Sequence record: ON528737
From: Shigella phage ESh27
Length of the DNA stretch: 64,000 nucleotides
Reading direction: 5' to 3' (one strand)
Shown here: positions 1,200-62,625 of the stretch, one piece after another
Layout of the letters: every line of letters starts with the position of its first letter
Position numbering within the stretch: position 1 is the stretch's first letter
The notes under the pieces: model-generated
The model's database searches: none
What the model saw: only the letters and a program-made list of their open reading frames with translations
What the model was told of the DNA's origin: nothing
Translations under genes and position numbers: made by a program

Positions 1200-2098
1200 T
1201 GGCTATTTTCCGCGTACCAATCTTGAGTATGCGGTCTTATGAAACTGGACAGTATGCTATCCTTAAGGATGGCAACTTCCAACTTCATTTGCACCGTGCT
1301 AATCCAGGCGATGTGATTACATATCCACGTAATGCATCTGATATTAAAGAATGCGAACGTCTTTTCCCGGAATTTAAGTTTGTTCCATTATGGTATAAAG
1401 ATAACGCGTATAACACTCGTAAATATTTCTGGTCTGAAAACGAATTTGTTGTTGATTCATTAATTGCTTATTATGATTGTGATTTTCTAATCACAGATAT
1501 CACTGGATATGACGGCGCTTTTGATGTAGAATTCAATTTCAATATCACTGCAGACCCTAATAAACCACGTTTTTATATTGACGAATTCTTAAAAACCGAC
1601 ATGTTGTCGGTTAATCGTTCACTTCAAACTACTGTGTTGAATGAACGTCAAAAAGAAGTGCTGGTTAACGCAGGTGCAGACGATAATAAGATTATCGTAA
1701 CGCAGAAAGTTATACGTCCTTCCATCATGCAGCGTCTTGTAGGTGATTTGGCTCCTATTCATGTAGATGGTATTTTTCATCCATTTCGAATTAGTGATCC
1801 GTGTTATCATTTTGAACAAGTGGTTGAATGTGCAATTCAATTAGGTCAACCGCTTTATATAACCGATCCAAATAATAGCTTCGACAGAAATAAGTATCCT
1901 GAAGAAGCGCTGATTCGAATTTTTAAACCAACTAAAACTGAGTACTACCAAATTCTTAAAGGACGTCCGAAGATTCAATATTTCGAAAATCCTGAAGAAG
2001 TATTCCATCCAGGTCTTGGTGAGTTCATCTACTTTAATGCTTTAATTTCTTCGCCGTATAATATACCTAAATACGAAGATGTCGTAATCGAGGAATAA
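1199..2098 (+). CDS. hypothetical protein in the beta-glucosyltransferase slot (candidate DNA-modification enzyme)
   Basis: 299 aa; ATG overlaps gene 42 stop (TAATG) and stop abuts next ATG, so translationally coupled; family not recognisable by eye. Confidence 0.6.
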   Translation: MAIFRVPILSMRSYETGQYAILKDGNFQLHLHRANPGDVITYPRNASDIKECERLFPEFKFVPLWYKDNAYNTRKYFWSENEFVVDSLIAYYDCDFLITDITGYDGAFDVEFNFNITADPNKPRFYIDEFLKTDMLSVNRSLQTTVLNERQKEVLVNAGADDNKIIVTQKVIRPSIMQRLVGDLAPIHVDGIFHPFRISDPCYHFEQVVECAIQLGQPLYITDPNNSFDRNKYPEEALIRIFKPTKTEYYQILKGRPKIQYFENPEEVFHPGLGEFIYFNALISSPYNIPKYEDVVIEE

Positions 2099-2099
2099 A

Positions 2100-2648
2100 A
2101 TGGCTAAAATTATTTTAGTAGATGGCCCGGATAATGCCGGTAAAACAACTTTCATTAATGACATAATGGAAATTAGTGAAAGATATGTAAAGATTGATTT
2201 CCCTAAACGAACAGTTGATGGACGTTTCGATGTTAAGTCTCGAAATGAAGTTGGTTGTTTCGAAACGATGTTGAATTATTTAGACCCTACTAAGATTTAT
2301 CTGTTAGACCGTGGATATATTAGTAACTGGGTTTATGGACGTATTCGACAAGATGCGGACTCGGTTCTTGACGTTTATGAACAGGATTATGTTCGTCTTT
2401 GTCAAAACCATGATGTGTTCACAATTATTTTAACACGTAACGAAATGACTGAAAGTTTTGAAGACGACCTTATTACTTTGTCTTCATTCGGTTTTAATAC
2501 AGTCATTTCACATTTTGAAGAGTTTGCAATTCATAACAAAATCCAAACGTATCAATTACTTAATCATGATGGTGCTAACAAAGTTATAGGATTTAATGCA
2601 AGCGAACGTAATGATTTGATTACAGAAATTATCAAATGGGCTCGTTAA
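2100..2648 (+). CDS. P-loop nucleotide-kinase-like protein
   Basis: 182 aa; Walker A GPDNAGKTT and a DRG motif resembling the thymidylate/dNMP kinase DRY/DRS motif. Confidence 0.6.
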   Translation: MAKIILVDGPDNAGKTTFINDIMEISERYVKIDFPKRTVDGRFDVKSRNEVGCFETMLNYLDPTKIYLLDRGYISNWVYGRIRQDADSVLDVYEQDYVRLCQNHDVFTIILTRNEMTESFEDDLITLSSFGFNTVISHFEEFAIHNKIQTYQLLNHDGANKVIGFNASERNDLITEIIKWAR

Positions 2649-2747: not shown

Positions 2748-3920
2748 ATGTCTGATTTAAAATCTCGTCTGATTAAAGCTTCTACTTCTAAAATGACTGC
2801 AGACTTGACTAAGTCTAAGCTGTTTAATAATCGTGATGAAGTCCCTACTCGTATTCCGATGTTGAATATTGCACTAGGTGGTGCTCTGAATGCAGGATTG
2901 CAATCAGGCTTGACTATTTTTGCTGCACCTTCTAAACATTTTAAAACATTGTTTGGACTAACTATGGTTGCAGCGTATATGAAGAAATATAAAGATGCAA
3001 TCTGTTTGTTCTATGATTCGGAATTTGGTGCTTCGGAATCTTACTTCCGTTCGATGGGTGTTGATTTGGACCGCGTAGTTCATACACCAATTCAGTCTGT
3101 CGAACAACTTAAAGTCGATATGACTAATCAGCTTGATGCTATTGAACGCGGTGATAAAGTTATTATCTTTATCGATTCAATCGGTAATACTGCATCTAAG
3201 AAAGAAACCGAAGATGCATTGAACGAGAAAGTTGTAGGTGATATGTCTCGTGCTAAGGCACTTAAATCTCTGTTCCGCATTGTGACTCCTTATCTGACTA
3301 TTAAAGATATTCCGTGTGTTGCAATCAACCATACAGCAATGGAAATCGGCGGACTATATCCTAAAGAGATTATGGGTGGTGGTACAGGTATTCTTTACTC
3401 TGCTAACACTGTATTCTTTATCTCTAAACGTCAGGTTAAAGAAGGTACAGAATTGACCGGTTATGACTTCACGTTGAAAGCAGAAAAATCTCGTACGGTT
3501 AAAGAGAAATCTACTTTCCCGATCACGGTTAATTTTGATGGCGGTATTGACCCATTCAGCGGCTTGTTAGAAATGGCAACTGAAATTGGTTTTGTGGTTA
3601 AACCTAAAGCCGGTTGGTATGCTCGTGAATTCCTTGACGAAGAAACAGGTGAAATGATTCGTGAAGAGAAATCATGGCGTGCTAAAGCTACTGATTGCGT
3701 AGAATTCTGGGGACCGTTGTTTAAACACAAACCTTTCCGAGATGCAATTGAAACTAAATATAAACTAGGTGCTATCTCTTCTATTAAAGAAGTTGATGAC
3801 GCTGTTAACGATCTTATTAATTGCAAAGCAACAACTAAAGTTCCGGTTAAAACTTCTGATGCTCCATCTGCAGCAGATATAGAAAACGACCTTGACGAAA
3901 TGGAAGATTTCGATGAATAA
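2748..3920 (+). CDS. uvsX: UvsX RecA-like recombinase
   Basis: 390 aa; N-terminus MSDLKSRLIKASTSK and acidic C-tail; RecA core with P-loop-like APSKHFKT; matches T4 UvsX length. Confidence 0.95.
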   Translation: MSDLKSRLIKASTSKMTADLTKSKLFNNRDEVPTRIPMLNIALGGALNAGLQSGLTIFAAPSKHFKTLFGLTMVAAYMKKYKDAICLFYDSEFGASESYFRSMGVDLDRVVHTPIQSVEQLKVDMTNQLDAIERGDKVIIFIDSIGNTASKKETEDALNEKVVGDMSRAKALKSLFRIVTPYLTIKDIPCVAINHTAMEIGGLYPKEIMGGGTGILYSANTVFFISKRQVKEGTELTGYDFTLKAEKSRTVKEKSTFPITVNFDGGIDPFSGLLEMATEIGFVVKPKAGWYAREFLDEETGEMIREEKSWRAKATDCVEFWGPLFKHKPFRDAIETKYKLGAISSIKEVDDAVNDLINCKATTKVPVKTSDAPSAADIENDLDEMEDFDE

Positions 3921-4263: not shown

Positions 4264-5706
4264 GTGGTAGAAATTATTTTGTCTCATCTCGTATATGACC
4301 AGGCTTATTTTTCTAAGGTCTGGCCTTATATGGATTCTGATTACTTTGAGCGTGGACCGGCAAAAAATGTCTTTAAAATTATAAAGAGCCACGTTAACGA
4401 ATATAATGCAATGCCATCCATCAATGCATTAAAGGTGGCTTTAGATAACAGTTCTTTAACTGAAGCCGAATATAAAGGAACTTCAGACCTAATTGAAAAA
4501 TTGGCTGATACTCCTGAAGACCACGAATGGTTGGTTAAAGAAACTGAGAAATATGTCCAGCAAAAAGCGATGTATAATGCCACGTCCAAAATCATTGAGA
4601 TTCAGACTAATGCCGAACTACCTCCAGAACAACGTAACAAGAAAATGCCTGACGTAGGAGCTATTCCTGATATTATGCGTCAAGCACTTTCAATTTCGTT
4701 TGATAGTTATGTTGGTCACGACTGGATGGAAGACTATGAAGCACGCTGGCTTTCTTATCTAAATAAAGCACGTAAGGTCCCGTTCAAATTAAACATTCTG
4801 AATAAAATCACCAAAGGTGGTGCAGAAACAGGTACACTGAACGTTTTAATGGCTGGTGTTAACGTTGGTAAATCTTTAGGCCTTTGTTCACTTGCCGCAG
4901 ATTATCTTCAAACAGGACATAATGTTCTTTATATTTCCATGGAAATGGCTGAAGAAGTTTGTGCTAAGCGTATAGATGCAAACATGCTTGACGTATCACT
5001 CGATGATATCGATGATGGTAACGTATCTTATGCTGAATATAAAGCCAAGATGGAAAAATGGCGTTCAAAATCCACATTAGGACGTTTAGTAGTCAAACAG
5101 TATCCTACTGGTGGAGCTAATGCTAATACATTCCGTGCATTGCTTAATGAATTGAAACTCAAGAAGAACTTTGTGCCGTCTGTAATTATAGTCGATTACT
5201 TAGGTATTTGTGGGTCTTGTCGTATCAGAGTTTACACCGAAAATAGTTACACATTAGTTAAAGCTATCGCAGAAGAACTTCGTGCATTAGCAGTAGAATC
5301 TGAAACAGTTCTATGGACTGCAGCTCAAGTAGGACGTGCAGCATGGGATGCTTCAGACATGAACATGAGTGATATCGCAGAATCAGCAGGTTTACCAGCA
5401 ACGGCAGATTTCATGTTGGCCGTAATTGAAACTGAAGAACTTGCACAAGCTGAACAACAACTTATCAAACAAATCAAATCACGATACGGTGATAAGAATA
5501 AGTGGAACAAGTTCTTGATGGGTGTACGTAAAGGCAATCAGAAATGGGTTGAGATTGAGCAAGAAGGCATGAACACACCTAACACAGTAAATGAAAACGC
5601 AGGTGCTCAGATGCGTCAGGCAGAGGTGAATCGTACGGAACGCGTAGGTAAAGCCAAAGCAACACGTGCTGACCTAGATAGCTTAGCCAATGAGTTAAAA
5701 TTTTAA
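4264..5706 (+). CDS. 41: gp41 replicative DNA helicase (DnaB-like)
   Basis: 480 aa; Walker A GVNVGKS; N-terminus MVEIILSHL; GTG start; T4 synteny. Confidence 0.9.
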   Translation: MVEIILSHLVYDQAYFSKVWPYMDSDYFERGPAKNVFKIIKSHVNEYNAMPSINALKVALDNSSLTEAEYKGTSDLIEKLADTPEDHEWLVKETEKYVQQKAMYNATSKIIEIQTNAELPPEQRNKKMPDVGAIPDIMRQALSISFDSYVGHDWMEDYEARWLSYLNKARKVPFKLNILNKITKGGAETGTLNVLMAGVNVGKSLGLCSLAADYLQTGHNVLYISMEMAEEVCAKRIDANMLDVSLDDIDDGNVSYAEYKAKMEKWRSKSTLGRLVVKQYPTGGANANTFRALLNELKLKKNFVPSVIIVDYLGICGSCRIRVYTENSYTLVKAIAEELRALAVESETVLWTAAQVGRAAWDASDMNMSDIAESAGLPATADFMLAVIETEELAQAEQQLIKQIKSRYGDKNKWNKFLMGVRKGNQKWVEIEQEGMNTPNTVNENAGAQMRQAEVNRTERVGKAKATRADLDSLANELKF

Positions 5707-7746: not shown

Positions 7747-8040
7747 ATGAAAAAGTTATCATTGGCAGCAATCTTACTTGCAGTATCGTGTGCACCGGCT
7801 CCAGTTACAGCAGGTTATGATAAAGACCTCTGTGAGTGGTCAATGACTGCAAATCAAGAAGATGTTGAACAACAAATCTTCTCTGATATCATGAACATCA
7901 CTAAACGAGACCGTCCTAATATGGTTAATAAAGTTGTTGAACAACTTAAGTCTGGCGGTATCATGCAGTACAACTATGTTTTGTATTGTGACCCTAATTT
8001 CGATAACAAAGATATCATAACCGAAATCACAGGTGAATAA
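7747..8040 (+). CDS. sp: spackle-like periplasmic protein (Sp)
   Basis: 97 aa with cleavable signal peptide; size and position between 41 and 61 match T4 sp. Confidence 0.55.
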   Translation: MKKLSLAAILLAVSCAPAPVTAGYDKDLCEWSMTANQEDVEQQIFSDIMNITKRDRPNMVNKVVEQLKSGGIMQYNYVLYCDPNFDNKDIITEITGE

Positions 8041-8041
8041 T

Positions 8042-8692
8042 ATGATTTATTATATGCACAAAAACGCGCCATTTAAATATGGTAAATTTCCTAATGCACA
8101 ATGTTATAATATAACGCCGAATGAAAATAATAACGGATACCATATTGGTGTAATTTTTGTAATTGTTAAAGATAACGAAATCGTTGCCTGGGCAGATTTT
8201 AAAGGTACAACGTATGACGTTAATCCGGTTCCGTTCACATATTATAATTTAATGGATTTGGCATACGACTATAATTGGTTTACTCATGATACTCTGGCAC
8301 ATGTTGAAGGCGTAGGATTTGACATCTCTTATTCTAGTTATTCATTATGTCCTATGAGCCGAGCTCACGGTAAAGATGTATCATATCTTTCAATTCGGAA
8401 ACGTGTAAACTTCAAACGTAGTACAGAGTATGTTGGTGGACTCTTTGTTAAAGATAATAAAATAACCCGTATTAGTTATCCTTTAAGTGTAGGTCAAAAA
8501 GATGTTGATGTTGATTTAGACTTAACTGAAAATAACATTAATCACATTGCTTCTGTATATTTTGATATCGATGAAAAAATTGTAGTGTGTGGATACGAAT
8601 TACCACCTGAAGAAAAGGCTGAAGCAATTGAAGTCGAATTAGAAATTTCTGTTGATGACCAAATATTTAATGCATTTATGAATCGAGGTTAA
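8042..8692 (+). CDS. hypothetical protein
   Basis: 216 aa; ATG 8042 immediately after sp stop. Confidence 0.5.
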   Translation: MIYYMHKNAPFKYGKFPNAQCYNITPNENNNGYHIGVIFVIVKDNEIVAWADFKGTTYDVNPVPFTYYNLMDLAYDYNWFTHDTLAHVEGVGFDISYSSYSLCPMSRAHGKDVSYLSIRKRVNFKRSTEYVGGLFVKDNKITRISYPLSVGQKDVDVDLDLTENNINHIASVYFDIDEKIVVCGYELPPEEKAEAIEVELEISVDDQIFNAFMNRG

Positions 8693-50394: not shown

Positions 50395-52650
50395 ATGCAA
50401 GTAACTAAGAGCAGTGGGGTATCCCAAAATTTTGATGCACAGAAAATTATTCAAGTATTAACTTGGCAATGTGAAGGAACACAAATCGACCCATATGAAT
50501 TGTACGAAGAAATTAAGACCCATCTTGTTGACGGGATGAGCACCAAAGATATTCAGAAGATTTGTATTAAAGTTGCAGCCAACTCGATTTCTGTCGAAGA
50601 ACCTGATTATCAATATGTTGCCGCTAAAGGATTAATGTTTGCACTTCGTAAAGATGTGTACGGACAGTTTGAACCTCCTGCTTTTATCGACCATATCTCG
50701 TATTGTGTTAATGAAGGCAAATACGACCCTGAGTTGTTGTCTAGATATTCTGCAGAAGAAATCATTTATCTCGATTCTCAGATTAAACATGAACGAGATT
50801 TTGATCTGACTTATGCTGGTGCTATGCAGCTTAAAGAAAAATACCTGGTTAAAGATAAAACAACTGGGAAGATTTATGAAACTCCACAGTTTGCTATCAT
50901 GGCTATTGGTATGGCCTTACATCAAGACGAAACTCATGACCGTTTGAAACATATTATTCGTTTTTATGATGCTGTTTCTACTCATCAAGTTTCATTGCCT
51001 ACCCCAATTATGGCAGGTGCTCGTACTCCAACTCGCCAGTTCTCTAGTTGTGTAGTTATTGAAGCCGGTGATTCGTTAAAATCTATTAACAAAACTTCAG
51101 CATCAATTATTGAATATATTTCTAAACGAGCTGGTATTGGTATCAACGTTGGTATGCTTCGTGCAGAAGGTTCTAAGATCGGTACGGGTGAAGTTCGACA
51201 TACGGGTGTTATTCCGTTCTGGAAACATTTCCAAACTGCAGTAAAATCTTGTTCTCAAGGTGGTATTCGTGGTGGTGCTGCTACGGCGTATTATCCGATG
51301 TGGCACTTAGAAGTAGAGAACCTGTTGGTTCTGAAAAATAACAAAGGTGTGGATGAAAACCGTATTCGACATATGGACTACGGAATTCAGATTAATGACC
51401 TTATGATGGAACGCCTTGGTAAAAATGATTATATTACTTTATTTAGCCCTCACGAAATGTCAGGCGAACTATATTACTCATTCTTTGAAGATCAAGATAA
51501 ATTCCGTGAGCTTTATGAGAAAGCTGAAAAAGACCCAACAATCAGAAAGAAAAGAATCAAAGCACTAGAACTCTTTGAATTGTTCATGACTGAACGTTCT
51601 GGTACTGCTCGAATTTATCCACAGTTTGTTGATAACACGAATAACTACACTCCGTTTATTCGTGAAAAAGCTCCAATTCGTCAGAGTAACTTATGCTGTG
51701 AAATCGCTATTCCAACTAATGATGTGAATGGTCCTGATGCTGAAATTGGTTTATGTACGCTGTCTGCATTCGTGCTAGATAACTTTGATTGGCAAGACCA
51801 AGACAAAATTAATGAGCTCGCTGAAGTCCAGGTACGTGCATTGGATAATCTATTAGATTATCAAAGCTATCCTGTTCCTGAAGCTCTGAAGGCTAAGAAA
51901 CGTCGTAACTTGGGTGTCGGTGTGACGAACTATGCTGCATGGTTAGCTTCTAACTTTGCTTCATATGAAGACGCTAACGATTTGACTCATGAATTGTTTG
52001 AGAGATTGCAATATGGCCTTATCAAAGCTTCAATCAAACTCGCCAAAGAAAAAGGACCTTGTGAGTATTATTCAGACACTAAATGGTCTAGAGGCGAATT
52101 ACCTATCGACTGGTACAATAAAAAGATTGACCAAATCGCAGCCCCGAACTACGTCTGTGACTGGGAAGAACTTCGAGCTGAACTCAAAGAACATGGAATT
52201 CGTAACAGTACACTTAGTGCTCTCATGCCATGCGAATCAAGCAGTCAAGTCTCAAATAGCACAAACGGTATAGAACCACCTCGTGGACCTGTAAGTATTA
52301 AAGAATCTAAAGAAGGCAACTTCCGTCAGGTTGTTCCTAATATCGAACATAACATGAGTCTTTACGACTACGCGTGGAAACTTGCTAAGAAAGGTAATAA
52401 ACCTTATTTGACCCAAGTTGCTATCATGTTGAAATGGGTGTGCCAATCTGCTTCTGCTAATACTTACTATGACCCGGCAGTATTTGAGAAAGGTAAAGTG
52501 CCAATGTCAGTAATGCTTGACGATCTGCTTTACTTCTGGTACTTTGGCGGAAAAAATCTCTACTATCATAACACTCGTGATGGGTCAGGTACAGATGACT
52601 ATGAATTAGAAACACCTAAAGCCGAAGATTGCTCTGCTTGTAAGCTTTAA
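50395..52650 (+). CDS. nrdA: ribonucleotide reductase large subunit
   Basis: 751 aa; active-site NLCCEIAIP; C-terminal cysteine pair CSACKL. Confidence 0.9.
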   Translation: MQVTKSSGVSQNFDAQKIIQVLTWQCEGTQIDPYELYEEIKTHLVDGMSTKDIQKICIKVAANSISVEEPDYQYVAAKGLMFALRKDVYGQFEPPAFIDHISYCVNEGKYDPELLSRYSAEEIIYLDSQIKHERDFDLTYAGAMQLKEKYLVKDKTTGKIYETPQFAIMAIGMALHQDETHDRLKHIIRFYDAVSTHQVSLPTPIMAGARTPTRQFSSCVVIEAGDSLKSINKTSASIIEYISKRAGIGINVGMLRAEGSKIGTGEVRHTGVIPFWKHFQTAVKSCSQGGIRGGAATAYYPMWHLEVENLLVLKNNKGVDENRIRHMDYGIQINDLMMERLGKNDYITLFSPHEMSGELYYSFFEDQDKFRELYEKAEKDPTIRKKRIKALELFELFMTERSGTARIYPQFVDNTNNYTPFIREKAPIRQSNLCCEIAIPTNDVNGPDAEIGLCTLSAFVLDNFDWQDQDKINELAEVQVRALDNLLDYQSYPVPEALKAKKRRNLGVGVTNYAAWLASNFASYEDANDLTHELFERLQYGLIKASIKLAKEKGPCEYYSDTKWSRGELPIDWYNKKIDQIAAPNYVCDWEELRAELKEHGIRNSTLSALMPCESSSQVSNSTNGIEPPRGPVSIKESKEGNFRQVVPNIEHNMSLYDYAWKLAKKGNKPYLTQVAIMLKWVCQSASANTYYDPAVFEKGKVPMSVMLDDLLYFWYFGGKNLYYHNTRDGSGTDDYELETPKAEDCSACKL

Positions 52651-52705
52651 GACTTTTGATTATAATTTACTCATGGATGAGTTAATAACTAAGTGAGAAA
52701 ATATA

Positions 52706-53881
52706 ATGAGTACAGTTTTTAACACGCAACAAGTCGATGTTTTGAATGAACCGATGTTCTTTGGTTCTGGTCTTGGCCTCGCACGGTATGATATTCAGCG
52801 TCATAAAGTTTTCGAAGAACTTATTGAAAAGCAATTGTCGTTTTTCTGGCGCCCAGAAGAGGTAAACTTGATGTTGGACTCTGCGCAGTTCAATAAGCTT
52901 CCTCAGTTCCAACAGGACATCTTTACAAACAATCTTAAGTATCAATCATTATTAGATTCTATACAAGGCAGGGCCCCATCTGCGGTACTTATGGCACTTA
53001 TTTCTGACCCTTCATTAGATACATGGGTTGCAACATGGACATTCAGTGAAACTATTCACTCTCGTTCATATACTCATATTATGCGAAATCTTTATACCGA
53101 TCCATCTAAGGTATTTGATGAAATTGTATTAGACGAAGCAATCATGAAACGAGCTGAATCAATAGGTAAATATTATGATGATGTTCTAGTCAAGACTCGC
53201 CATTGGGAAAATGCTAAGGAAAATTATGAGTATTCACTAGGCTCATGCCAGCAGAATGATATTGAGATGTACGAAGAAATAATGTTTAACGCCAAGCGTG
53301 AGCTAATGAAATCTCTTTATCTCTGTTTGCACGTTATCAACTCCTTAGAAGCTATTCGTTTTTACGTATCATTTGCATGTACTTTCAACTTCCATAAAAA
53401 TATGGAAATTATGGAAGGCAATGCAAAGATTATGAAGTTCATTGCTCGTGACGAACAACTCCACCTTAAGGGTACTCAGTACATTATCCGTCAACTTCAA
53501 TCTGGTACTGACGGCGATGAGTGGGTTCAAATTGCTAAAGAATGTGAACAAGAAGCAGTTGACATTTTTATGGAAGTAAATAGTCAAGAGAAGGAATGGG
53601 CTGCGCACCTCTTTAAAGACGGTACATGTCCAGGTATAAATACACAGAGTATGTGTGCTTTTGTTGATTACTTGACTGTGTCTCGTATGAAACAGTGTGG
53701 TTTGCCGTGTCCAATTACTGATGCTCCGACCAAACATCCGTATCCTTGGATTCGTGAATATCTGAACTCTGATTTAGTTCAAGCAGCTCCTCAGGAAGTT
53801 GAAATCAGTTCTTATCTTGTTGCACAAATTGATAATGATGTAGACCAAAATGTAATCAATTCATACAAAAAATATTTCTAA
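52706..53881 (+). CDS. nrdB: ribonucleotide reductase small subunit (uninterrupted)
   Basis: 391 aa; di-iron ligand region SETIHSRSYTHI; continuous frame. Confidence 0.9.
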   Translation: MSTVFNTQQVDVLNEPMFFGSGLGLARYDIQRHKVFEELIEKQLSFFWRPEEVNLMLDSAQFNKLPQFQQDIFTNNLKYQSLLDSIQGRAPSAVLMALISDPSLDTWVATWTFSETIHSRSYTHIMRNLYTDPSKVFDEIVLDEAIMKRAESIGKYYDDVLVKTRHWENAKENYEYSLGSCQQNDIEMYEEIMFNAKRELMKSLYLCLHVINSLEAIRFYVSFACTFNFHKNMEIMEGNAKIMKFIARDEQLHLKGTQYIIRQLQSGTDGDEWVQIAKECEQEAVDIFMEVNSQEKEWAAHLFKDGTCPGINTQSMCAFVDYLTVSRMKQCGLPCPITDAPTKHPYPWIREYLNSDLVQAAPQEVEISSYLVAQIDNDVDQNVINSYKKYF

Positions 53882-55559: not shown

Positions 55560-56060
55560 ATGAATATGCAATTGATTACTAACGATATGGTCGTAACCGC
55601 TTTTGGAGACACAACTGACGGAATCCGAGTCTTTAAGAAAGGACGTCCAGTTGGTTATCTTACTGACCTCCGTGTTACACTGGCCAAAAATCTTAAAAAG
55701 AAAGTAAAACAAAAAGAGTATTCCACCCGATACGCCGAAGAGAAACGCGAAGCGATGCCGGAAGCAGTTAATGCCATGGTAGAATTTCTTCAAAACAATT
55801 TGACTAAATATGACGCTAATGTGTTCATTAATATTAGTCAACCAAACGTACATATCGCAGGTATAAAATTCTACATTATTTGCGACCCTCTTACCGACAA
55901 ATTCAACCGCCTCGGAATTTCAAGCCCGTATCATACAGCAGAAGAGTTGTGTGTATTGTTTGAATCGTACAAAATCCAGTGTGATGGTTTGAAAACCGTT
56001 CTTATCAATGGATTATCCCGAGATGAAATCATTGAGATTATTAAAACATGCTTAAAGTAA
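55560..56060 (+). CDS. alc: hypothetical protein (alc position)
   Basis: 166 aa from ATG 55560 (SD GAGGAGAA); assignment by size/synteny only. Confidence 0.4.
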   Translation: MNMQLITNDMVVTAFGDTTDGIRVFKKGRPVGYLTDLRVTLAKNLKKKVKQKEYSTRYAEEKREAMPEAVNAMVEFLQNNLTKYDANVFINISQPNVHIAGIKFYIICDPLTDKFNRLGISSPYHTAEELCVLFESYKIQCDGLKTVLINGLSRDEIIEIIKTCLK

Positions 56061-56404
56061 ATCCGATTTATGCTATAGTAGCAGCTTTTGCTCTAGCTTC
56101 TACGGTAACAATAGTTGTCTTAAACAACAAAGTTGATTCGTTGAATACTGAATTAGCTTCTGTCAAAGAGACCGCTAAAAACAATGCTAAAGTATTAGAC
56201 GACTTCAAAGTTCAATATCAGTCAATCGAAGAAATGACTTATAAGAACCGTGTTTTAGTTGACCAACTTAAGGCTGAAAATGAAAAGCTCCGTAAGGATT
56301 CGAAGAAGAAGAACGTGGTGGCAAGTAAACCAGGATTGGTTGAAAAACAAATCAACAGGTCCTTCGATTCCTTTGCAGAAGACCTCAGGAAGCTCTCAGA
56401 ATGA
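56048..56404 (+). CDS. putative i-spanin (PseT.3-like)
   Basis: 118 aa; N-terminal TM helix then charged coiled-coil region; overlaps next gene. Confidence 0.55.
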   Translation: MLKVNPIYAIVAAFALASTVTIVVLNNKVDSLNTELASVKETAKNNAKVLDDFKVQYQSIEEMTYKNRVLVDQLKAENEKLRKDSKKKNVVASKPGLVEKQINRSFDSFAEDLRKLSE

Positions 56405-56691
56405 TTAAATTAACCGCAGTTGTATTATCTATTGGCATTTTGGCTGGATGTGCCCAAGATGTGCCCTTAAGCCCTAAAGAAACTTTACATCCGCAATGGC
56501 CTGAATCTATTGTTGAATATAACCAGAAATGGCAGGTAAAGGTTATTGATGGTAATCCATGGGTTGGAATGCCATTTGAAGACTCTCAAGAATTTCGTAT
56601 CTGGTTAAACGACGTAAAAAGATATGTACATGACCAGAAGACTATGTTATGTTATTATCGTAGTGGTTTAAAAGAGGAAAAATGCCAATGA
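56401..56691 (+). CDS. putative o-spanin lipoprotein (PseT.2-like)
   Basis: 96 aa; signal peptide with lipobox LAGC; start overlaps i-spanin stop. Confidence 0.55.
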   Translation: MIKLTAVVLSIGILAGCAQDVPLSPKETLHPQWPESIVEYNQKWQVKVIDGNPWVGMPFEDSQEFRIWLNDVKRYVHDQKTMLCYYRSGLKEEKCQ

Positions 56692-56906
56692 CTAAAGAAC
56701 AGCATGAATACATTAAAGGGCTTATCTATGAATCTGAAATGGCGGCTATGATTTATGGCCGTCTGATTCAACGATTAGAATCTTTGCCTCCGACTAATGA
56801 CCGCTTGTTAGTTCAGTCTCGTGCTAATCTGAAAAATGAATATCAGAACAAGTGGGCAGTAGCGACTAAAGCTCTTCATGAGTATATCGAATCTTTAGTA
56901 AAATAG
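56682..56906 (+). CDS. hypothetical protein
   Basis: 74 aa. Confidence 0.4.
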   Translation: MPMTKEQHEYIKGLIYESEMAAMIYGRLIQRLESLPPTNDRLLVQSRANLKNEYQNKWAVATKALHEYIESLVK

Positions 56907-56945
56907 TTTACAAACTCTCGGGAGCAGAGTATAATGCTCCTATGG
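56906..56945 (+). promoter_or_regulatory. early promoter within inverted repeat
   Basis: -35 GTTTAC 56906-56911, 18 bp, -10 TATAAT 56930-56935 flanked by GGAGCA/TGCTCC; near-copy of the 28882 element. Confidence 0.5.
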
Positions 56946-56963
56946 ATAATTGAGGAAATCTAA

Positions 56964-57262
56964 ATGAAAACATTACTAGAGAATTATATCAAACGGTCAG
57001 ATGAGTATATTGATATCTGCCGTGGAATGTCACTTGTCAATTATGATAAAGATGCAGCAAAGGCCATAGATGAAGCAGGTAAAGCTCTTCGTAAAGCTGC
57101 TAAAGAAAAAGGGTTGGATTTGCAACAACTCAAAAGTCATATGATTAAATTTATTTCTTCAAACGTTAGAAGTACGTCAATTAATAAAAACGTTGCTGAA
57201 ATTAATAAAGACCGGCGCGAACATAACATTCGTATTCTTGAAGCTTTCTTAGGAATAAAATA

Positions 57263-57263
<1 letters not shown>
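56964..57263 (+). CDS. hypothetical protein
   Basis: 99 aa after early promoter. Confidence 0.45.
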
Positions 57264-58349
<1,086 letters not shown>

Positions 58350-58350
<1 letters not shown>

Positions 58351-58541
58351 TGAAACGATTATATGAAGTGATTGAGGCCATCGAACAGCATAAAGAATAT
58401 TTGTTTGTAGCCTGGCCTTTAGTAAATGGACAGTTCGGTATTGATGTGCTGGACTATGAGCATGAAGAACGTTTGGACGGTGGTATATTTGATAACGTCG
58501 ACCAGGCAATTGAATGGTTAAATGAAAATTATGTACGATAA
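58350..58541 (+). CDS. hypothetical protein
   Basis: 63 aa; ATG overlaps pseT stop. Confidence 0.4.
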
Positions 58542-58746
58542 ACATCATGAAATCGAAGATGAAGCATACAAAATGCTTCGTAAACTAGTAGGACTTAATA
58601 TGAGTTCTACATTAATCAACAAGCTTACCGAAATTCGTAACGACCTGAATACTCGTTACAAAGGCGAATATCATGTAGAGTTTGTTCCTGTAGGCGAACC
58701 GACCGAGCAATTTGTTGTTCGAGTTAAAGTAAATACTGTACACTGA
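58522..58746 (+). CDS. hypothetical protein
   Basis: 74 aa (alternative ATG at 58531). Confidence 0.4.
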   Translation: MKIMYDKHHEIEDEAYKMLRKLVGLNMSSTLINKLTEIRNDLNTRYKGEYHVEFVPVGEPTEQFVVRVKVNTVH

Positions 58747-58753
58747 GGTAATT

Positions 58754-59029
58754 ATGTTCCCTAAATATTCTGAAATTGTAAAGGTCGTTTTTAGTCAGAT
58801 TATCGCAAATCATTTCTTTGATAAGCTGGATACTGCTACCGAGCTTAAGGTCCACTCTGAACTACTCTACGTTTTGAATACACTAGTGCCTGACCAAGTG
58901 GATTCTGTGTCTGTTACGTTGTTGCCCAGCTCGGCTCATGTGATTGTTGTGTTTGGTCTTGATGCTGAACTAGTAATTCAGTGTGAAGTTGATTTCGATT
59001 CACAAGAAATTAAATGTTTTGCAATTTAA
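58754..59029 (+). CDS. hypothetical protein
   Basis: 91 aa. Confidence 0.45.
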   Translation: MFPKYSEIVKVVFSQIIANHFFDKLDTATELKVHSELLYVLNTLVPDQVDSVSVTLLPSSAHVIVVFGLDAELVIQCEVDFDSQEIKCFAI

Positions 59030-59068
59030 GTTTACAACACCGTAGAGTTGTGATATGATGACTCTACC
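59030..59068 (+). promoter_or_regulatory. early promoter
   Basis: -35 GTTTAC 59030-59035, 18 bp, -10 TATGAT 59054-59059; flanked by CGTAGAGT/ACTCTAC. Confidence 0.45.
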
Positions 59069-59086
59069 AACAATGAGGAAATTGAA

Positions 59087-59323
59087 ATGCTAAGTGAAAA
59101 TCCAATTACAGTACACGAATTTCAGATTAAAGTAAAAGAATTTGCTCAAGCACTCATCAATAAAGTGTCTGAACGTTTCCAGGATGCAACATTACGAGTT
59201 ATTCAAGAATCTCCACGTTCTTTTCTCATAATCGTTAATCCTAAAGATGGTGACCAAATTACTAATCTTAAATTAGGCAGTGATGGTCTTGTTGAAGCAA
59301 CTCGAGTATATGGAACACTATAA
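59087..59323 (+). CDS. hypothetical protein
   Basis: 78 aa after early promoter. Confidence 0.45.
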   Translation: MLSENPITVHEFQIKVKEFAQALINKVSERFQDATLRVIQESPRSFLIIVNPKDGDQITNLKLGSDGLVEATRVYGTL

Positions 59324-59443
59324 TGAGAGCTATCTCATTACTATCGAGAATGGTCATAAATCTGAGCACTACCAACTTAACCTGTCTAATCCGGTTAAAG
59401 GTATTGTTGAATCAGAATCTGTTTATATCTCCTAAGGATTGTT

Positions 59444-60436
59444 ATGTTACCTGTCGTCGGAAAACTTATTTCTCCAAAAGAACTGGCTGAGATTATTCCT
59501 TTGTCGGAAGCTTACGCATCACAAGTGGCTTCTCATCGCGAACAAGTTAATTCGATTATGAATGGTGAAGACCCACGCAAACTTATTGTTGTAGGTCCTT
59601 GTTCAATTCATGACCCTATTGCTGCTGTTGAATACGGCAAACGTCTGGCTGAACTTCAAACTCGTCTTCCTAATGTTCTGTTAGTGATGCGCGTTTATTT
59701 TGAAAAGCCTCGAACTACCGTAGGTTGGAAAGGTCTTGTAAATGATCCATATCTTGACGGAAGTTTTGATATGAACCACGGTCTTATAGTTGCACGAACA
59801 TTGTGTCGTAAACTTCTACGTATGGGACTTCCATTAGCAACTGAAGTATTAGACCCATTCACGATTAAGTATCTTTCTGGTATTTTCTCATGGGTTGCTA
59901 TTGGCGCCCGTACGACTGAAAGTCAGACACATCGTGAAATTGCTTCAGGTCTACCGATGTGCGTAGGCTTTAAGAACGCAACCAATGGTTCTATTAAAGT
60001 AGCTACAGACGCGATGTATAGTGCCGCCTGGCCTCATCGGTATATGGGTATGGACGTCGATGGTACTGTAGGCATTGTTGAAGCTGAAGGTAATCAGAAT
60101 ACGCATATCGTATTGCGTGGCGGGACCAACGGCCCGAACTATCATTCTTCTGATATTCAAGAAGCTTCTAACAAAGCAAGGGCAGTAGGTCTGAATCATT
60201 ATGTAATGGTTGACTGTAGCCATGCAAACGCTGATGGGCATTATAGCAATCAAATTGGTATTGGTAAAAATTTAGCAGCTAATGATTTGGTCAAAGGAAT
60301 TATGATAGAATCGTTCCTACATGAAGGAAATCAAAAAATTTCTGATAATATGTCCTATGGCGTTTCCGTTACCGATGCGTGCATCAGTTGGGAACAAACT
60401 AAAGAGCTGTTAACTTATATTAATAAGGTTCAATAA
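59444..60436 (+). CDS. 3-deoxy-D-arabino-heptulosonate-7-phosphate (DAHP) synthase, class I
   Basis: 330 aa; long blocks matching bacterial AroG-type DAHP synthase as remembered (GPCSIHDP, MRVYFEKPRTTVGWKGL, GARTTESQ.HRE, GFKN, ESFLHEGNQ). Confidence 0.85.
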   Translation: MLPVVGKLISPKELAEIIPLSEAYASQVASHREQVNSIMNGEDPRKLIVVGPCSIHDPIAAVEYGKRLAELQTRLPNVLLVMRVYFEKPRTTVGWKGLVNDPYLDGSFDMNHGLIVARTLCRKLLRMGLPLATEVLDPFTIKYLSGIFSWVAIGARTTESQTHREIASGLPMCVGFKNATNGSIKVATDAMYSAAWPHRYMGMDVDGTVGIVEAEGNQNTHIVLRGGTNGPNYHSSDIQEASNKARAVGLNHYVMVDCSHANADGHYSNQIGIGKNLAANDLVKGIMIESFLHEGNQKISDNMSYGVSVTDACISWEQTKELLTYINKVQ

Positions 60437-61017
60437 TGAAAGCTAGCACATACCTTCAGATTGCATATCTGATTTCTCAAGAATCAAAATGTTGTTCATG
60501 GAAAGTAGGTGCCGTCATTGAAAAAGATGGACGTATCATTTCTACTGGGTATAACGGTAGCCCGGCAGGTGGTATAAACTGTTGTGACCATGCTACTGAA
60601 CAAGGTTGGTTGAAGAATAAACCAAGCCCGGTCATCGTTGCTGGGCATAAAGAAGGCACTACAGCATTTGGACGGGCCGATAATTTTGTTTTGGCTAAAG
60701 AACATCGGGCTGCTCATAGTGCATGGTCTGCTAATAACGAAATCCATGCGGAACTGAACGCAATTTTGTTTGCAGCTCGTAAAGGTAATTCTATTGAAGG
60801 TGCTACGTTATATACGACGCTTTCTCCGTGTCCTGATTGCACTAAAGCTATTACGCAGTCAGGTATTAAAAAGGTTGTATATGCAGAATTATATGACCGA
60901 TCTCCTGAAAATTGGGCAGACATTCTAAAACAAGCTGGTATTGAAGTAATTCAGTACTCTCGTAATAATCTTCGTTCTCTGAATTGGGAACAAATCCGAA
61001 ACTTTTGTGGTGAATAA
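60436..61017 (+). CDS. cd: dCMP deaminase
   Basis: 193 aa; zinc motifs HAELNAI and PCPDC; T4 synteny. Confidence 0.9.
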   Translation: MKASTYLQIAYLISQESKCCSWKVGAVIEKDGRIISTGYNGSPAGGINCCDHATEQGWLKNKPSPVIVAGHKEGTTAFGRADNFVLAKEHRAAHSAWSANNEIHAELNAILFAARKGNSIEGATLYTTLSPCPDCTKAITQSGIKKVVYAELYDRSPENWADILKQAGIEVIQYSRNNLRSLNWEQIRNFCGE

Positions 61018-61018
61018 T

Positions 61019-61315
61019 ATGATTTTAACTGAACAAGAAACTGTGGTTCTTCGTGAACGTATTAAAACTATTCTGTCTGTAGGCGTTCATTGTGTTGTAT
61101 TTGAAAAGGCTAACGGTGATGTTCGTACGATGTTTGCTTCGCGCGACGAACTTGAAGTCAAATACGAAAATAACAATCCGGCAACAGAAGTTCGTTATGA
61201 ACCTCGTGAATCAGTTCGAGCATTCGATACCAAGTTAGGTCAGTGGCGTTCTTTCCGCCTTGATAAAGTAATTTCGGTTGATGGTACTCCGGTGGAACGT
61301 TTGCTTCTTATGTAA
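61019..61315 (+). CDS. hypothetical protein
   Basis: 98 aa from ATG 61019 directly after cd stop. Confidence 0.4.
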   Translation: MILTEQETVVLRERIKTILSVGVHCVVFEKANGDVRTMFASRDELEVKYENNNPATEVRYEPRESVRAFDTKLGQWRSFRLDKVISVDGTPVERLLLM

Positions 61316-61317
61316 TA

Positions 61318-61342
61318 TGCTTTACGAATAGTATGGTATTAT
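61318..61342 (+). promoter_or_regulatory. candidate MotA-dependent middle promoter for gene 31
   Basis: MotA box TGCTTTA 61318-61324, 12 bp, -10 TATTAT 61337-61342. Confidence 0.5.
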
Positions 61343-61372
61343 TAATCTATCGTCAAACAACAAGGAAATAAG

Positions 61373-61705
61373 ATGTCTGAAGTACAACTCCCAATTCGTG
61401 CTGTTGGTGAATATGTCATTCTGGTTTCTGAACCCGCTCAAGCAGGTGATGAAGAAGTTACCGAATCAGGACTTGTGATTGGTAAACGTGTTCAAGGTGA
61501 AGTTCCTGAACTATGTGTAGTTCATTCTGTAGGTCCTGATGTTCCTGAAGGTTTTGTTGAAGTCGGTGATTTGACTCCACTACCAGTTGGACAAATTCGA
61601 AATGTTCCACATCCATTTGTGGCTTTAGGTCTTAAACAACCTAAAGAAATTAAACAGAAATTCGTAACATGCCACTATAAAGCTATTCCGTGTCTTTATA
61701 AGTGA
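61373..61705 (+). CDS. 31: gp31 GroES-like co-chaperonin
   Basis: 110 aa; block [26 protein letters not shown] and C-terminus [10 protein letters not shown]; middle promoter upstream. Confidence 0.85.
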
Positions 61706-61713
61706 TATAAATA
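61706..61713 (+). promoter_or_regulatory. candidate late promoter upstream of rIII
   Basis: Exact TATAAATA immediately after gene 31 stop. Confidence 0.4.
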
Positions 61714-61829
61714 ACTATATGAAGAGAACACTCTTCTAAGCGGTAGCCTACAACTGAGAGACTTGTCGAAAGAAGGTGAAATTCAGACGAACGTGGCTAC
61801 TAAATATTATCTCGAATTGAGAATTTAAA

Positions 61830-62078
61830 ATGATTAAACAATTACAACACGCTCTTGAACTGCAACGCAACGCATGGAATAATGGCCACGAAAACTACGG
61901 CGCGTCAATTGATGTTGAAGCCGAAGCACTGGAAATCCTGCGATATTTCAAACATCTGAATCCAGCACAGGCCGATCTTCGTGATATCCTGGCTCAGAAA
62001 GATGAATTGAAATATGCTAAGCCTCTGGCTTCAGCAGCTCGTAAAGCAGTTCGTCATTTTGTTATTACCCTGAAGTAA
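61830..62078 (+). CDS. rIII: rIII lysis-inhibition accessory protein
   Basis: 82 aa; size and position downstream of gene 31; TATAAATA upstream. Confidence 0.65.
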   Translation: MIKQLQHALELQRNAWNNGHENYGASIDVEAEALEILRYFKHLNPAQADLRDILAQKDELKYAKPLASAARKAVRHFVITLK

Positions 62079-62448
62079 GTTAAATCGAGGAGCCGTCGAA
62101 TTGTCTGATTATCGATTTGCGAATCGGTATGTTTTAGAAGTACCGCCCCGACAATTTTACGGTGTACCTCTTGAATGTTGTTCTTATAACGGTAAGTGCA
62201 TGCTACCCCGAGGTGATGGCTAATCGGGAGTACGCCTCAAGGCCTATATATCCATCAGTATATATCTTATCCTCGAGAAATCGAACCCGGAACCTTTAAG
62301 CTAACGGTGTGCAACAGATAAGAGTTATAAGGTATGATGACGGGTTTATGGTTATCCTGTCGTTAAATATCCAAAACCTATGTTCCCCTTGAGGGCTTGA
62401 GCAGGCAATGTCAATAAGTCCTGCATTTTCATTTAAAGAGAATTTATA

Positions 62449-62625
62449 ATGGCAAAACAAACTAAAGCAAAGAAAGCAGTTGAAAAGAAAGTCGGTGATT
62501 CTAAACGCGCTGGATACAAGCGTGGGTCGAACTCTCGTATTAATCAAACAGTTGAGAAGATCATGCGCAGAGCACGTGCAGTTCTTCGAGATGATGCTTC
62601 TCGTTTTGGAAAGGTTGTTGCATAA
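62449..62625 (+). CDS. hypothetical small basic protein
   Basis: 58 aa, Lys/Arg-rich; followed by strong terminator; found by hand-translation. Confidence 0.35.
   Translation: MAKQTKAKKAVEKKVGDSKRAGYKRGSNSRINQTVEKIMRRARAVLRDDASRFGKVVA

What the first reader, a model, noticed from the sequence alone, without database searches (positions are those of the whole stretch)
59444..60436. Phage-encoded DAHP synthase (aromatic amino acid pathway entry enzyme) between pseT and cd
The 330-aa protein shows long conserved blocks of class I DAHP synthase. A full-length host-like metabolic enzyme inside the nucleotide-metabolism block is an auxiliary metabolic gene. Possible roles are escaping feedback-inhibited host DAHP synthesis or supplying a sugar-phosphate precursor for DNA modification.
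Basis: partly seen in the sequence, partly recalled or inferred. Interest (0 to 1): 0.65.

Follow-up and report, generated by a model that had tools for sequence, protein, structure and literature searches.

The report
Phage DAHP synthase with rebuilt regulatory site
This RB69-like coliphage carries a complete, almost certainly active copy of the enzyme that opens the aromatic amino acid pathway; databases already annotate the gene, but the pocket where amino acids normally switch the enzyme off has been specifically rewritten in the phage lineage.

Summary
ORF 59444-60436 (+, 330 aa) is a type I-alpha DAHP synthase. It scores above the curated cut-offs of TIGR00034 and NF009395, and its model matches solved AroG-type structures at TM 0.95. 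All four metal ligands and the PEP/E4P residues are intact.

The window is a Mosigvirus genome. The identical protein is already annotated in over 100 GenBank phage records, belongs to PHROG 5045, and is mentioned in the phiC120 genome paper. The gene itself is therefore already known.

What I add:
- **Accessory cassette.** The gene sits on a 1.1-kb cassette that RB69 lacks. The cassette carries a fragment of a foreign cd.2-like gene, so it was imported from another T4-like lineage.
- **Conserved position.** The order pseT-DAHPS-cd recurs in four other T4-like lineages.
- **Rewritten regulatory site.** Only six positions separate 25 phage-clade proteins from 98 bacterial homologues. Five of them are known AroG inhibitor-site residues (P150, Q151, D155, S180, F209). 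The N-terminus is also 8-9 residues shorter.

Best reading: an early-expressed DAHP synthase that ignores Phe/Tyr/Trp feedback and pushes carbon into the shikimate pathway. A direct role as a precursor for DNA modification is not supported. No enzyme assay exists.

The parts
59444..60436 (+). DAHP synthase gene (type I-alpha, AroF-like; 330 aa)
   Evidence: ORF. Pfam, NCBIfam and PHROG hits. Match to AroF 6agm E=5e-105. AlphaFold model pLDDT 92, TM 0.95-0.96 to AroG and Neisseria DAH7PS. Catalytic residues intact.
59434..59438 (+). Ribosome-binding site AAGGA, 5 nt before the ATG
   Evidence: Read directly from the sequence.
59339..60432 (+). Accessory cassette (leader plus DAHPS) that is absent from RB69
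   Evidence: blastn against RB69: window 57001-59338 and 60433-61972 are collinear with RB69, and nothing matches in between. The 105-bp leader occurs in exactly 139 phage records, the same number that hold DAHPS at >=95% identity.
59310..59435 (+). 41-codon ORF: a 3' fragment of a second, foreign cd.2-like (DUF7320) gene carried in with the cassette
   Evidence: Pfam DUF7320 positions 44-76, E=1.3e-6. Its motif SYLITIE matches the cd.2 homologue of Klebsiella phage PWKp18, not the resident cd.2, which reads SFLIIVN.
59320..59338 (+). Left copy of an imperfect short repeat of the cd start (TAATGAGAGCTA...), the junction microhomology
   Evidence: RB69 bases 134236-134254 align to both 59320-59338 and 60433-60451.
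60433..60451 (+). Right copy of the junction repeat (TAATGAAAGCTA...), the true cd start
59031..59059 (+). Promoter-like site resembling a T4 early promoter (GTTTACA, 17 nt, TATGAT with upstream TG), upstream of cd.2-DAHPS-cd
   Evidence: Consensus scan, 10 of 12 matches, and the sequence itself. The scan found no + strand terminator-like site in 56000-62500, and a pattern search of 56900-60500 found no late-promoter motif. This is a consensus match only.
59087..59323 (+). Resident cd.2 homologue (DUF7320), the upstream neighbour
   Evidence: Pfam E=1.5e-35. 96% identical to RB69 cd.2.
60436..61017 (+). dCMP deaminase (cd); its start codon overlaps the DAHPS stop codon
   Evidence: Pfam and PHROG hits. 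TAATG overlap.
57451..58350 (+). Polynucleotide kinase/phosphatase (pseT), the left landmark of the variable pseT-cd region
   Evidence: Pfam and PHROG hits.

Best explanation
The gene encodes a catalytically competent, metal-dependent type I-alpha DAHP synthase that condenses PEP with erythrose-4-phosphate. It is probably transcribed early, together with cd.2 and cd. Unlike the host enzymes AroF, AroG and AroH, it is predicted not to be switched off by tyrosine, phenylalanine or tryptophan. The residues that hold the inhibitor's main chain are replaced, and the N-terminal segment that caps the inhibitor pocket from the partner subunit is missing. In an infected cell, host genes can no longer be de-repressed. 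The enzyme would then keep carbon flowing into the shikimate/chorismate pathway whatever the aromatic amino acid pools are. That flow would supply aromatic amino acids for the burst of phage protein synthesis, and possibly chorismate-derived cofactors such as folate. Shown here: identity, fold, an intact active site, a remodelled allosteric site, purifying selection, accessory-cassette status and conserved gene position. Inferred: enzyme activity, insensitivity to feedback, time of expression and physiological benefit.
For: Family membership is above curated cut-offs. The model fits solved DAHP synthases at TM 0.95-0.96 and rmsd 1.4 A. The metal ligands C53/H260/E289/D311 and the residues R83, K88-P89-R90-T91, R156, K177 and R225 are invariant in all 25 phage-clade and 98 bacterial sequences. 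Only six clade-diagnostic positions exist in 330: P>I141, Q>K142, D>G146, S>P171, F>Y200 and T>A214. Five of them are the equivalents of AroG P150, Q151, D155, S180 and F209. PMC9529685 reports that Q151/Q152 and S180/S181 bind the inhibitor's main chain, that P150L, S180F and F209A/S are feedback-resistant, and that D155 forms a stabilising salt bridge. The phage proteins have 8-12 residues before the conserved Pro11, against 16 or more in every bacterial homologue (AroG 18, AroF 19). Compared with phage Bas46 there are 7 synonymous and 0 non-synonymous differences, and GC3 is 29%, as in the neighbouring phage genes. The position between pseT and cd is conserved in Winklervirus, Marfavirus, Bragavirus and an uncultivated T4-like contig. 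There is an RBS, a stop/start overlap with cd, and an upstream early-promoter-like site.
Against: No enzyme assay, expression data or knockout phenotype was found in the searchable literature. The replaced allosteric residues are themselves invariant across phage genera. That fits a rebuilt site, perhaps for a new effector or for a structural role, better than a simply abandoned one. RB69 and roughly 8% of Mosigvirus records lack the gene, so it is dispensable. The claim that AroG Asp6/Asp7/Ile10 and AroF Asn8/Ile11 matter for inhibition rests on my own recollection of Shumilin et al. 2002 and Jossek et al. 2001. I could not check it here (one search found nothing). Why a phage would need more aromatic flux is not established.
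Confidence: 0.6

Rival explanations
1. It is an ordinary extra dose of DAHP synthase that is still regulated, either by an aromatic amino acid bound in a different way or by a new effector that fits the rebuilt pocket (Lys142, Pro171, Tyr200).
For: The substituted pocket residues are invariant across phage genera that share only 56-77% identity. This suggests constraint rather than decay. The Tyr-type Gly202 and the AroF-like Pro138 are retained.
Against: Two of the substitutions resemble known feedback-resistant mutations (P150L and S180F; PMC9529685). The N-terminal cap is missing. No candidate effector is known.
Confidence: 0.15
2. It acts as an irreversible sink for erythrose-4-P (and PEP) that rewires the non-oxidative pentose phosphate pathway. 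This would favour pentose phosphates for nucleotides and for the phage's arabinose-5-P to UDP-arabinose DNA-modification pathway. Alternatively, it compensates for E4P shortage caused by that drain.
For: The phage-clade DAHPS and the RB69 gp55-type arabinose-5-P isomerase occur in largely the same lineages: Mosigvirus, EcS1, Serratia/Erwinia Winklervirus, KLB31, SdyM_006 and Proteus phiP4-3. Several per-host counts are identical in the two searches. The arabinose pathway draws on ribulose-5-P (PMC13326640).
Against: The link is not obligate in either direction. RB69 has arabinosylated DNA and no DAHPS (PMC6024577). 57 Acinetobacter phage records have the isomerase; only four Acinetobacter records match DAHPS, and the two sampled are about 45-48% identical contigs of one 'phage' assembly, not phage-clade copies. 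25 Klebsiella phages have DAHPS, but at most 3 have the isomerase. Shared ancestry of these genera could explain the overlap. There are no metabolite data.
Confidence: 0.12
3. DAHP, or a product made from another aldose phosphate such as arabinose-5-P, is itself a building block for a DNA or surface modification.
For: The gene sits in a nucleotide-metabolism block. From my own knowledge, E. coli DAHP synthase can accept five-carbon sugar phosphates weakly (Sheflyan et al. 1998).
Against: The KPRT motif and all E4P/PEP residues are those of DAHP synthase. No KdsA-type family was hit. The chemically determined modification of these phages is arabinose on (hydroxy)cytosine, made from ribulose-5-P (PMC13326640, PMC6024577). 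RB69 lacks the gene. No downstream phosphatase or cytidylyltransferase lies beside it.
Confidence: 0.03
4. It is an inactive relic or a protein with an unrelated moonlighting role, for example as an anti-defence decoy.
For: The gene is dispensable in RB69. Phage accessory regions are rich in counter-defence genes, for example AdfA at 8033-8692.
Against: Every catalytic residue is conserved across divergent phage genera. All seven differences from Bas46 are synonymous. The structure model is confident and complete.
Confidence: 0.03

Closest known systems
E. coli AroF (Tyr-sensitive DAHP synthase; PDB 6agm/6agl)
   Same: Same type I-alpha (beta/alpha)8 barrel, with the same metal ligands and PEP/E4P residues. 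It is the closest solved relative by sequence (E=5e-105; 51% identity). It shares the AroF-type Pro138 and Gly202.
   Different: The phage protein lacks about 9 N-terminal residues. It carries I141-K142, G146, P171 and Y200 in place of AroF P151-Q152, D156, S182 (AroG S180; cited as S181 in PMC9529685) and the conserved Phe. It therefore probably lacks tyrosine inhibition. It is phage-encoded, with 41% GC.
E. coli AroG feedback-resistant mutants (P150L, S180F, F209A/S and others)
   Same: The substitutions fall at the same positions of the inhibitor pocket (PMC9529685).
   Different: The mutants are single laboratory changes. The phage clade carries a fixed set of five or six natural changes plus an N-terminal truncation.
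PHROG 5045 / GenBank 'phospho-2-dehydro-3-deoxyheptonate aldolase' of Mosigvirus and other T4-like phages (e.g. phiC120 ORF64, Bas46 bas46_0048, KLB31)
   Same: It is the same protein, 98-100% identical in 139 records, with a PHROG E-value of 3e-182. It has been noted as a DAHP synthetase domain or AMG in PMC8022965 and PMC11845039.
   Different: Nothing differs in sequence. Those sources give only an annotation and do not analyse the regulatory site or the cassette structure.
KDO8P synthase (KdsA), the sister family within PF00793
   Same: Same fold and the same PEP-aldol chemistry.
   Different: The window protein has the DAHPS KPRT motif, the beta6a/6b hairpin and an N-terminal extension. 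It hits only DAHPS models in NCBIfam.

Membership tests
Type I-alpha DAHP synthase (TIGR00034 aroFGH / NF009395 / Pfam PF00793) | Sequence score above the curated family cut-offs | tested here: met
   NF009395 455 bits (cut-off 343); TIGR00034 428 bits (cut-off 173); PF00793 252 bits (cut-off 25.5).
Type I-alpha DAHP synthase | (beta/alpha)8 barrel with the beta6a/beta6b hairpin insertion | tested here: met
   AlphaFold model pLDDT 92.4, with strands at 198-203 and 209-214. Foldseek TM 0.95-0.96 and rmsd 1.4-1.6 A to 1qr7, 1gg1, 4hso and 5dcb.
Type I-alpha DAHP synthase | Metal-binding tetrad Cys-His-Glu-Asp (AroG C61, H268, E302, D326) | tested here: met
   C53, H260, E289 and D311 are invariant in all aligned sequences.
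Type I-alpha DAHP synthase | PEP/E4P binding residues, including the KPRT motif (AroG R92, K97-P-R99-T100, R165, K186, R234) | tested here: met
   R83, K88-P89-R90-T91, R156, K177 and R225 are invariant.
Type I-alpha DAHP synthase | Catalysis of PEP + E4P to DAHP + Pi | not testable with these tools
   Needs an enzyme assay or complementation of an aroFGH mutant.
Feedback-regulated isozymes AroF / AroG / AroH | Isozyme-specific model score above cut-off | tested here: not met
   AroG NF006723 363 bits against cut-off 568; AroH NF009396 386 bits against cut-off 463.
Feedback-regulated isozymes AroF / AroG / AroH | Inhibitor-pocket residues (AroG P150, Q151, D155, S180, F209) | tested here: not met
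   The phage clade has I141, K142, G146, P171 and Y200. The 98 bacterial homologues have P, Q, D, S and F at 93-100%.
Feedback-regulated isozymes AroF / AroG / AroH | Full N-terminal extension that caps the inhibitor site of the partner subunit | tested here: not met
   10 residues precede the conserved Pro11, against 17-19 in AroH/G/F and 16 or more in all bacterial hits. The functional role of those residues is from my own knowledge.
Feedback-regulated isozymes AroF / AroG / AroH | Inhibition by Tyr, Phe or Trp | not testable with these tools
   Needs enzyme kinetics.
KDO8P synthase (KdsA) | Match to KdsA models; absence of the KPRT motif and of the type I-alpha decorations | tested here: not met
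   Only DAHPS models were hit in NCBIfam. KPRT and the beta6a/6b hairpin are present.
Phage auxiliary metabolic gene | A homologue of a host metabolic enzyme encoded inside a bona fide phage genome | tested here: met
   The window is 98% identical to Mosigvirus genomes. The gene is flanked by pseT, cd and gp31. It belongs to PHROG 5045, in the category 'moron, auxiliary metabolic gene and host takeover'.
Phage auxiliary metabolic gene | Expressed during infection and altering host metabolism | not tested
   There are only sequence signals: an RBS, an early-promoter-like site and overlap with cd.

The most novel reading that the evidence does not exclude
The phage lineage did not simply lose feedback control. 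It rebuilt the allosteric pocket into a new, strictly conserved form (I141-K142-G146-P171-Y200-A214 plus a short N-terminus). That form might respond to a different, phage-relevant effector. Alternatively, it might tie DAHP synthesis to the pentose-phosphate and arabinose-5-phosphate drain of phages that arabinosylate their DNA, with which the gene largely co-occurs.
Probability: 0.15. Interest if true: 0.55.

Novelty: already known. Interest (0 to 1): 0.3.

Why it matters
DAHP synthase controls how much carbon enters aromatic amino acid, folate and quinone synthesis. A naturally deregulated enzyme fixed in a widespread group of enterobacterial T4-like phages would be a clear case of a virus overriding a host metabolic checkpoint. 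It could also be a ready-made feedback-resistant enzyme for metabolic engineering. Many phages carrying it are therapy candidates, and natural gene-minus relatives such as RB69 exist, so the effect on burst size in different nutrient conditions can be tested directly. The gene itself is already annotated, however, and the proposed function is the expected one.

Tried and rejected
- **Literature searches for a functional study of a phage DAHP synthase**. These found only annotation-level mentions (PMC11845039, PMC8022965).
- **Search for papers on the role of the AroF/AroG N-terminus in inhibition**. Nothing usable turned up, so that point stays marked as my own knowledge.
- **Recent capture from the host.** Rejected: identity to E. 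coli AroF/G/H is only 51/47/43%, GC3 is phage-like, and the protein belongs to a separate phage clade.
- **Obligatory link to DNA arabinosylation.** Rejected: RB69 lacks the gene. Acinetobacter phages have the arabinose-5-P isomerase without a phage-clade DAHPS, and Klebsiella phages have DAHPS largely without the isomerase.
- **KDO8P synthase identity.** Rejected (and the motifs).
- **MotA-box and late-promoter searches upstream of the gene.** No late-promoter motif was found; no MotA box lies upstream of the gene — the only full match (59939) is inside the coding sequence.
- **Not attempted:** a full presence/absence table across all Straboviridae, because search outputs list at most 60 records.

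Full report
**Observation.** An ATG-initiated ORF of 330 codons occupies exactly 59444..60436 on the + strand. Upstream lies pseT (57451..58350; Pfam HAD_PNKP and AAA_33), followed by five small ORFs. Downstream lies cd (60436..61017; dCMP deaminase), whose ATG shares a base with the DAHPS stop codon (TAATG). Then come a WYL_2 protein (gp31.1) and the gp31 co-chaperonin. The protein matches:
- Pfam DAHP_synth_1, E=5e-75;
- NCBIfam NF009395, 455 bits against a cut-off of 343;
- the aroFGH equivalog TIGR00034, 428 bits against a cut-off of 173;
- PHROG 5045 'phospho-2-dehydro-3-deoxyheptonate aldolase', E=3e-182.

**Where the window comes from, and whether the gene is known.** The 3.7-kb pseT-cd stretch is 97-98% identical to many Mosigvirus (RB69-like) coliphages, for example LF82-1, Bas46 'ChristianSchoenbein' and phiC120. 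A tblastn search finds the protein in 212 phage records, 139 of them at >=95% identity. Most carry annotations such as DAHP synthase, aroF or 'putative aldolase'. The phiC120 genome paper mentions a DAHP synthetase domain in ORF 64, which is the identical protein (PMC8022965). A Klebsiella phage survey lists the homologue of phage KLB31 as an amino-acid AMG (PMC11845039). I found no biochemical or genetic study. The gene is therefore already known as an annotation, and its function is untested.

**Is it a working enzyme?**
- **Sequence relatives.** The closest solved relatives are E. coli AroF (6agm, E=5e-105), Neisseria DAH7PS and E. coli AroG. Identity to E. coli AroF/G/H is 51/47/43%.
- **Structure.** An AlphaFold model built on a 52-sequence alignment has pLDDT 92.4 and pTM 0.92. 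It superposes on solved type I-alpha enzymes at TM 0.95-0.96 and rmsd 1.4-1.6 A. It includes the beta6a/beta6b hairpin typical of that subtype.
- **Active site.** The metal ligands are C53, H260, E289 and D311 (AroG C61, H268, E302, D326). The substrate residues are R83, K88-P89-R90-T91, R156, K177 and R225. All are invariant in 25 phage-clade and 98 bacterial sequences.
- **Selection and composition.** Compared with Bas46, the gene differs at seven synonymous and no non-synonymous sites. Its GC3 of 29% matches the neighbouring phage genes.
- **Not a KDO8P synthase.** The protein does not reach the AroG- or AroH-specific cut-offs, and no KdsA model is hit.

**The regulatory site.** I aligned 25 phage-clade proteins (56-100% identical to the query; from Mosigvirus, Kanagawavirus-like, Winklervirus, Marfavirus, EcS1, Bragavirus-like and uncultivated contigs) with 98 bacterial homologues. 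I then looked for positions where the phage clade is >=95% one residue and the bacteria are >=90% another. Only six of 330 positions qualify:

| Phage position | Bacteria > phage | AroG equivalent |
|---|---|---|
| 141 | P > I | P150 |
| 142 | Q > K | Q151 |
| 146 | D > G | D155 |
| 171 | S > P | S180 |
| 200 | F > Y | F209 |
| 214 | T > A | lies in the adjacent beta6b strand |

According to PMC9529685:
- Q151/Q152 and S180/S181 bind the main chain of the inhibitor in AroG/AroF;
- P150L, S180F and F209A/S give feedback resistance;
- D155 forms a salt bridge that stabilises this region.

The phage proteins also have only 8-12 residues before the conserved Pro11, against 16 or more in every bacterial sequence (AroG 18, AroF 19). 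The missing stretch corresponds to AroG residues about 3-10. From my own recollection (Shumilin et al. 2002; Jossek et al. 2001; not verifiable here), this stretch contributes Asp6, Asp7 and Ile10 (AroF Asn8, Ile11) to the inhibitor site of the partner subunit.

So the phage lineage differs from cellular enzymes almost only in the allosteric site. The simplest inference is loss of Phe/Tyr/Trp feedback. The new residues are themselves invariant, however, which leaves room for a rebuilt pocket with another role.

**Genomic anatomy.** RB69 itself lacks the gene: its cd.2 abuts cd directly. By blastn, window 57001-59338 and 60433-61972 are collinear with RB69, and 59339-60432 is extra DNA. That extra DNA is bounded by an imperfect 12-19-nt repeat of the cd start. 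The 105-bp leader of the cassette occurs in exactly the 139 records that hold the >=95% DAHPS.

The leader contains a 41-codon ORF (59310-59435). This ORF is the C-terminal part of a second DUF7320/cd.2 gene (Pfam E=1.3e-6). It resembles the cd.2 homologue of Klebsiella Marfavirus PWKp18 (shared SYLITIE), not the resident Mosigvirus cd.2. The cassette therefore entered Mosigvirus from another T4-like lineage and brought a piece of its former upstream neighbour with it.

The order pseT ... DAHPS ... cd is found in:
- Serratia phage X20 (Winklervirus);
- Klebsiella phage PWKp18 (Marfavirus);
- Proteus phage phiP4-3 (Bragavirus);
- an uncultivated T4-like contig at 57% identity.

A T4-early-type promoter-like site (GTTTACA, 17 nt, TATGAT) lies at 59031-59059, upstream of cd.2. 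The scan of 56000-62500 found no + strand terminator-like site, and a pattern search of 56900-60500 found no late-promoter motif. An AAGGA ribosome-binding site precedes the ATG. This fits early co-expression with cd, but it rests on consensus matches only.

**Link to DNA modification?** Mosigviruses carry arabinosylated (hydroxy)cytosine. The proposed sugar pathway runs from ribulose-5-P through arabinose-5-P to NDP-arabinose, using phage enzymes encoded between gene 43 and uvsX. Neither paper on the subject mentions DAHP synthase (PMC6024577, PMC13326640).

A tblastn search with the RB69 gp55 arabinose-5-P isomerase finds 275 records. They overlap strikingly with the DAHPS-bearing lineages: Mosigvirus, EcS1, Winklervirus, KLB31, SdyM_006 and phiP4-3, with identical per-host counts for several hosts. 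The link is not obligate, though:
- RB69 has the modification but not DAHPS.
- 57 Acinetobacter phage records have the isomerase. Only four Acinetobacter records match DAHPS, and the two sampled are about 45-48% identical contigs of one 'phage' assembly, not phage-clade copies.
- 25 Klebsiella phages have DAHPS, while at most three have the isomerase.

A direct precursor role is thus not supported. An indirect metabolic coupling through erythrose-4-P and the pentose phosphates remains a speculative rival.

**Verdict.** The finding is real and correctly identified, but it is not new. The gene is a known, widely annotated accessory gene of enterobacterial T4-like phages. My best explanation (confidence about 0.6) is an early-expressed, catalytically intact DAHP synthase that has lost canonical aromatic amino acid feedback and pushes carbon into the shikimate pathway during infection. 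The concentration of all clade-specific substitutions in the allosteric pocket, and the cassette structure with its foreign cd.2 fragment, are modest additions that I did not find described. Interest 0.3.

Noticed in passing
window 59310-59435: A 41-codon ORF just upstream of DAHPS is a C-terminal fragment of a second cd.2/DUF7320 gene. It is closer to the Klebsiella Marfavirus version than to the resident Mosigvirus cd.2. It marks horizontal import of the DAHPS cassette.
   Followed up: yes
window 483-2648: The start of the window holds the tail end of the cytosine-hypermodification module. ORF 483-1199 is thymidylate-synthase-like and the same size as RB69 ORF048. ORF 1199-2098 (299 aa) appears to correspond to RB69 ORF046 and ORF047 joined. 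ORF 2100-2648 is the size of the RB69 ORF045 kinase. uvsX (2748-3920) and the gp41 helicase (4264-5706) follow.
   Followed up: partly
window 8033-8692: A full-length AdfA (anti-DarT factor A) counter-defence gene; Pfam PF23813, E=1e-119.
   Followed up: no
window 52651-52705 (between nrdA 50395-52650 and nrdB 52706-53881): The close relative LF82-1 has a 642-bp homing endonuclease gene between nrdA and nrdB. This window has only a 55-nt spacer, so the endonuclease is absent here.
   Followed up: no
window 60436-61017 versus RB69 133742-134251: cd is 193 aa here and overlaps the next gene. RB69's cd is annotated as 169 aa even though the DNA is collinear. This could be a premature stop, a frameshift or a sequencing error in RB69.
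   Followed up: no
L014 6001-7032 (Logan SRR28261677) and L012 2517-3515 (ENA ERZ27315841): Uncultivated T4-like contigs carry divergent (57-59% identical) members of the phage DAHPS clade. L014 keeps the order pseT-x-DAHPS-cd-WYL_2. L012 has a different neighbourhood and an intermediate pocket (PYTPK), which hints at stepwise remodelling.
   Followed up: partly
L009 4001-4975 (Aeromonas phage HJ05, 79 kb) and human-gut 'Bacteriophage sp.' contigs: Unrelated phages carry DAHP synthase homologues at only 35-38% identity. These are apparently independent acquisitions.
   Followed up: no
window 59444-60436 versus flanks: The DAHPS gene is more similar to its Bas46 counterpart (99.3% nt) than the flanking pseT (97.2%) and cd (94.5%) are. 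This could reflect a recent sweep of the cassette within Mosigvirus. It rests on one comparison.
   Followed up: no
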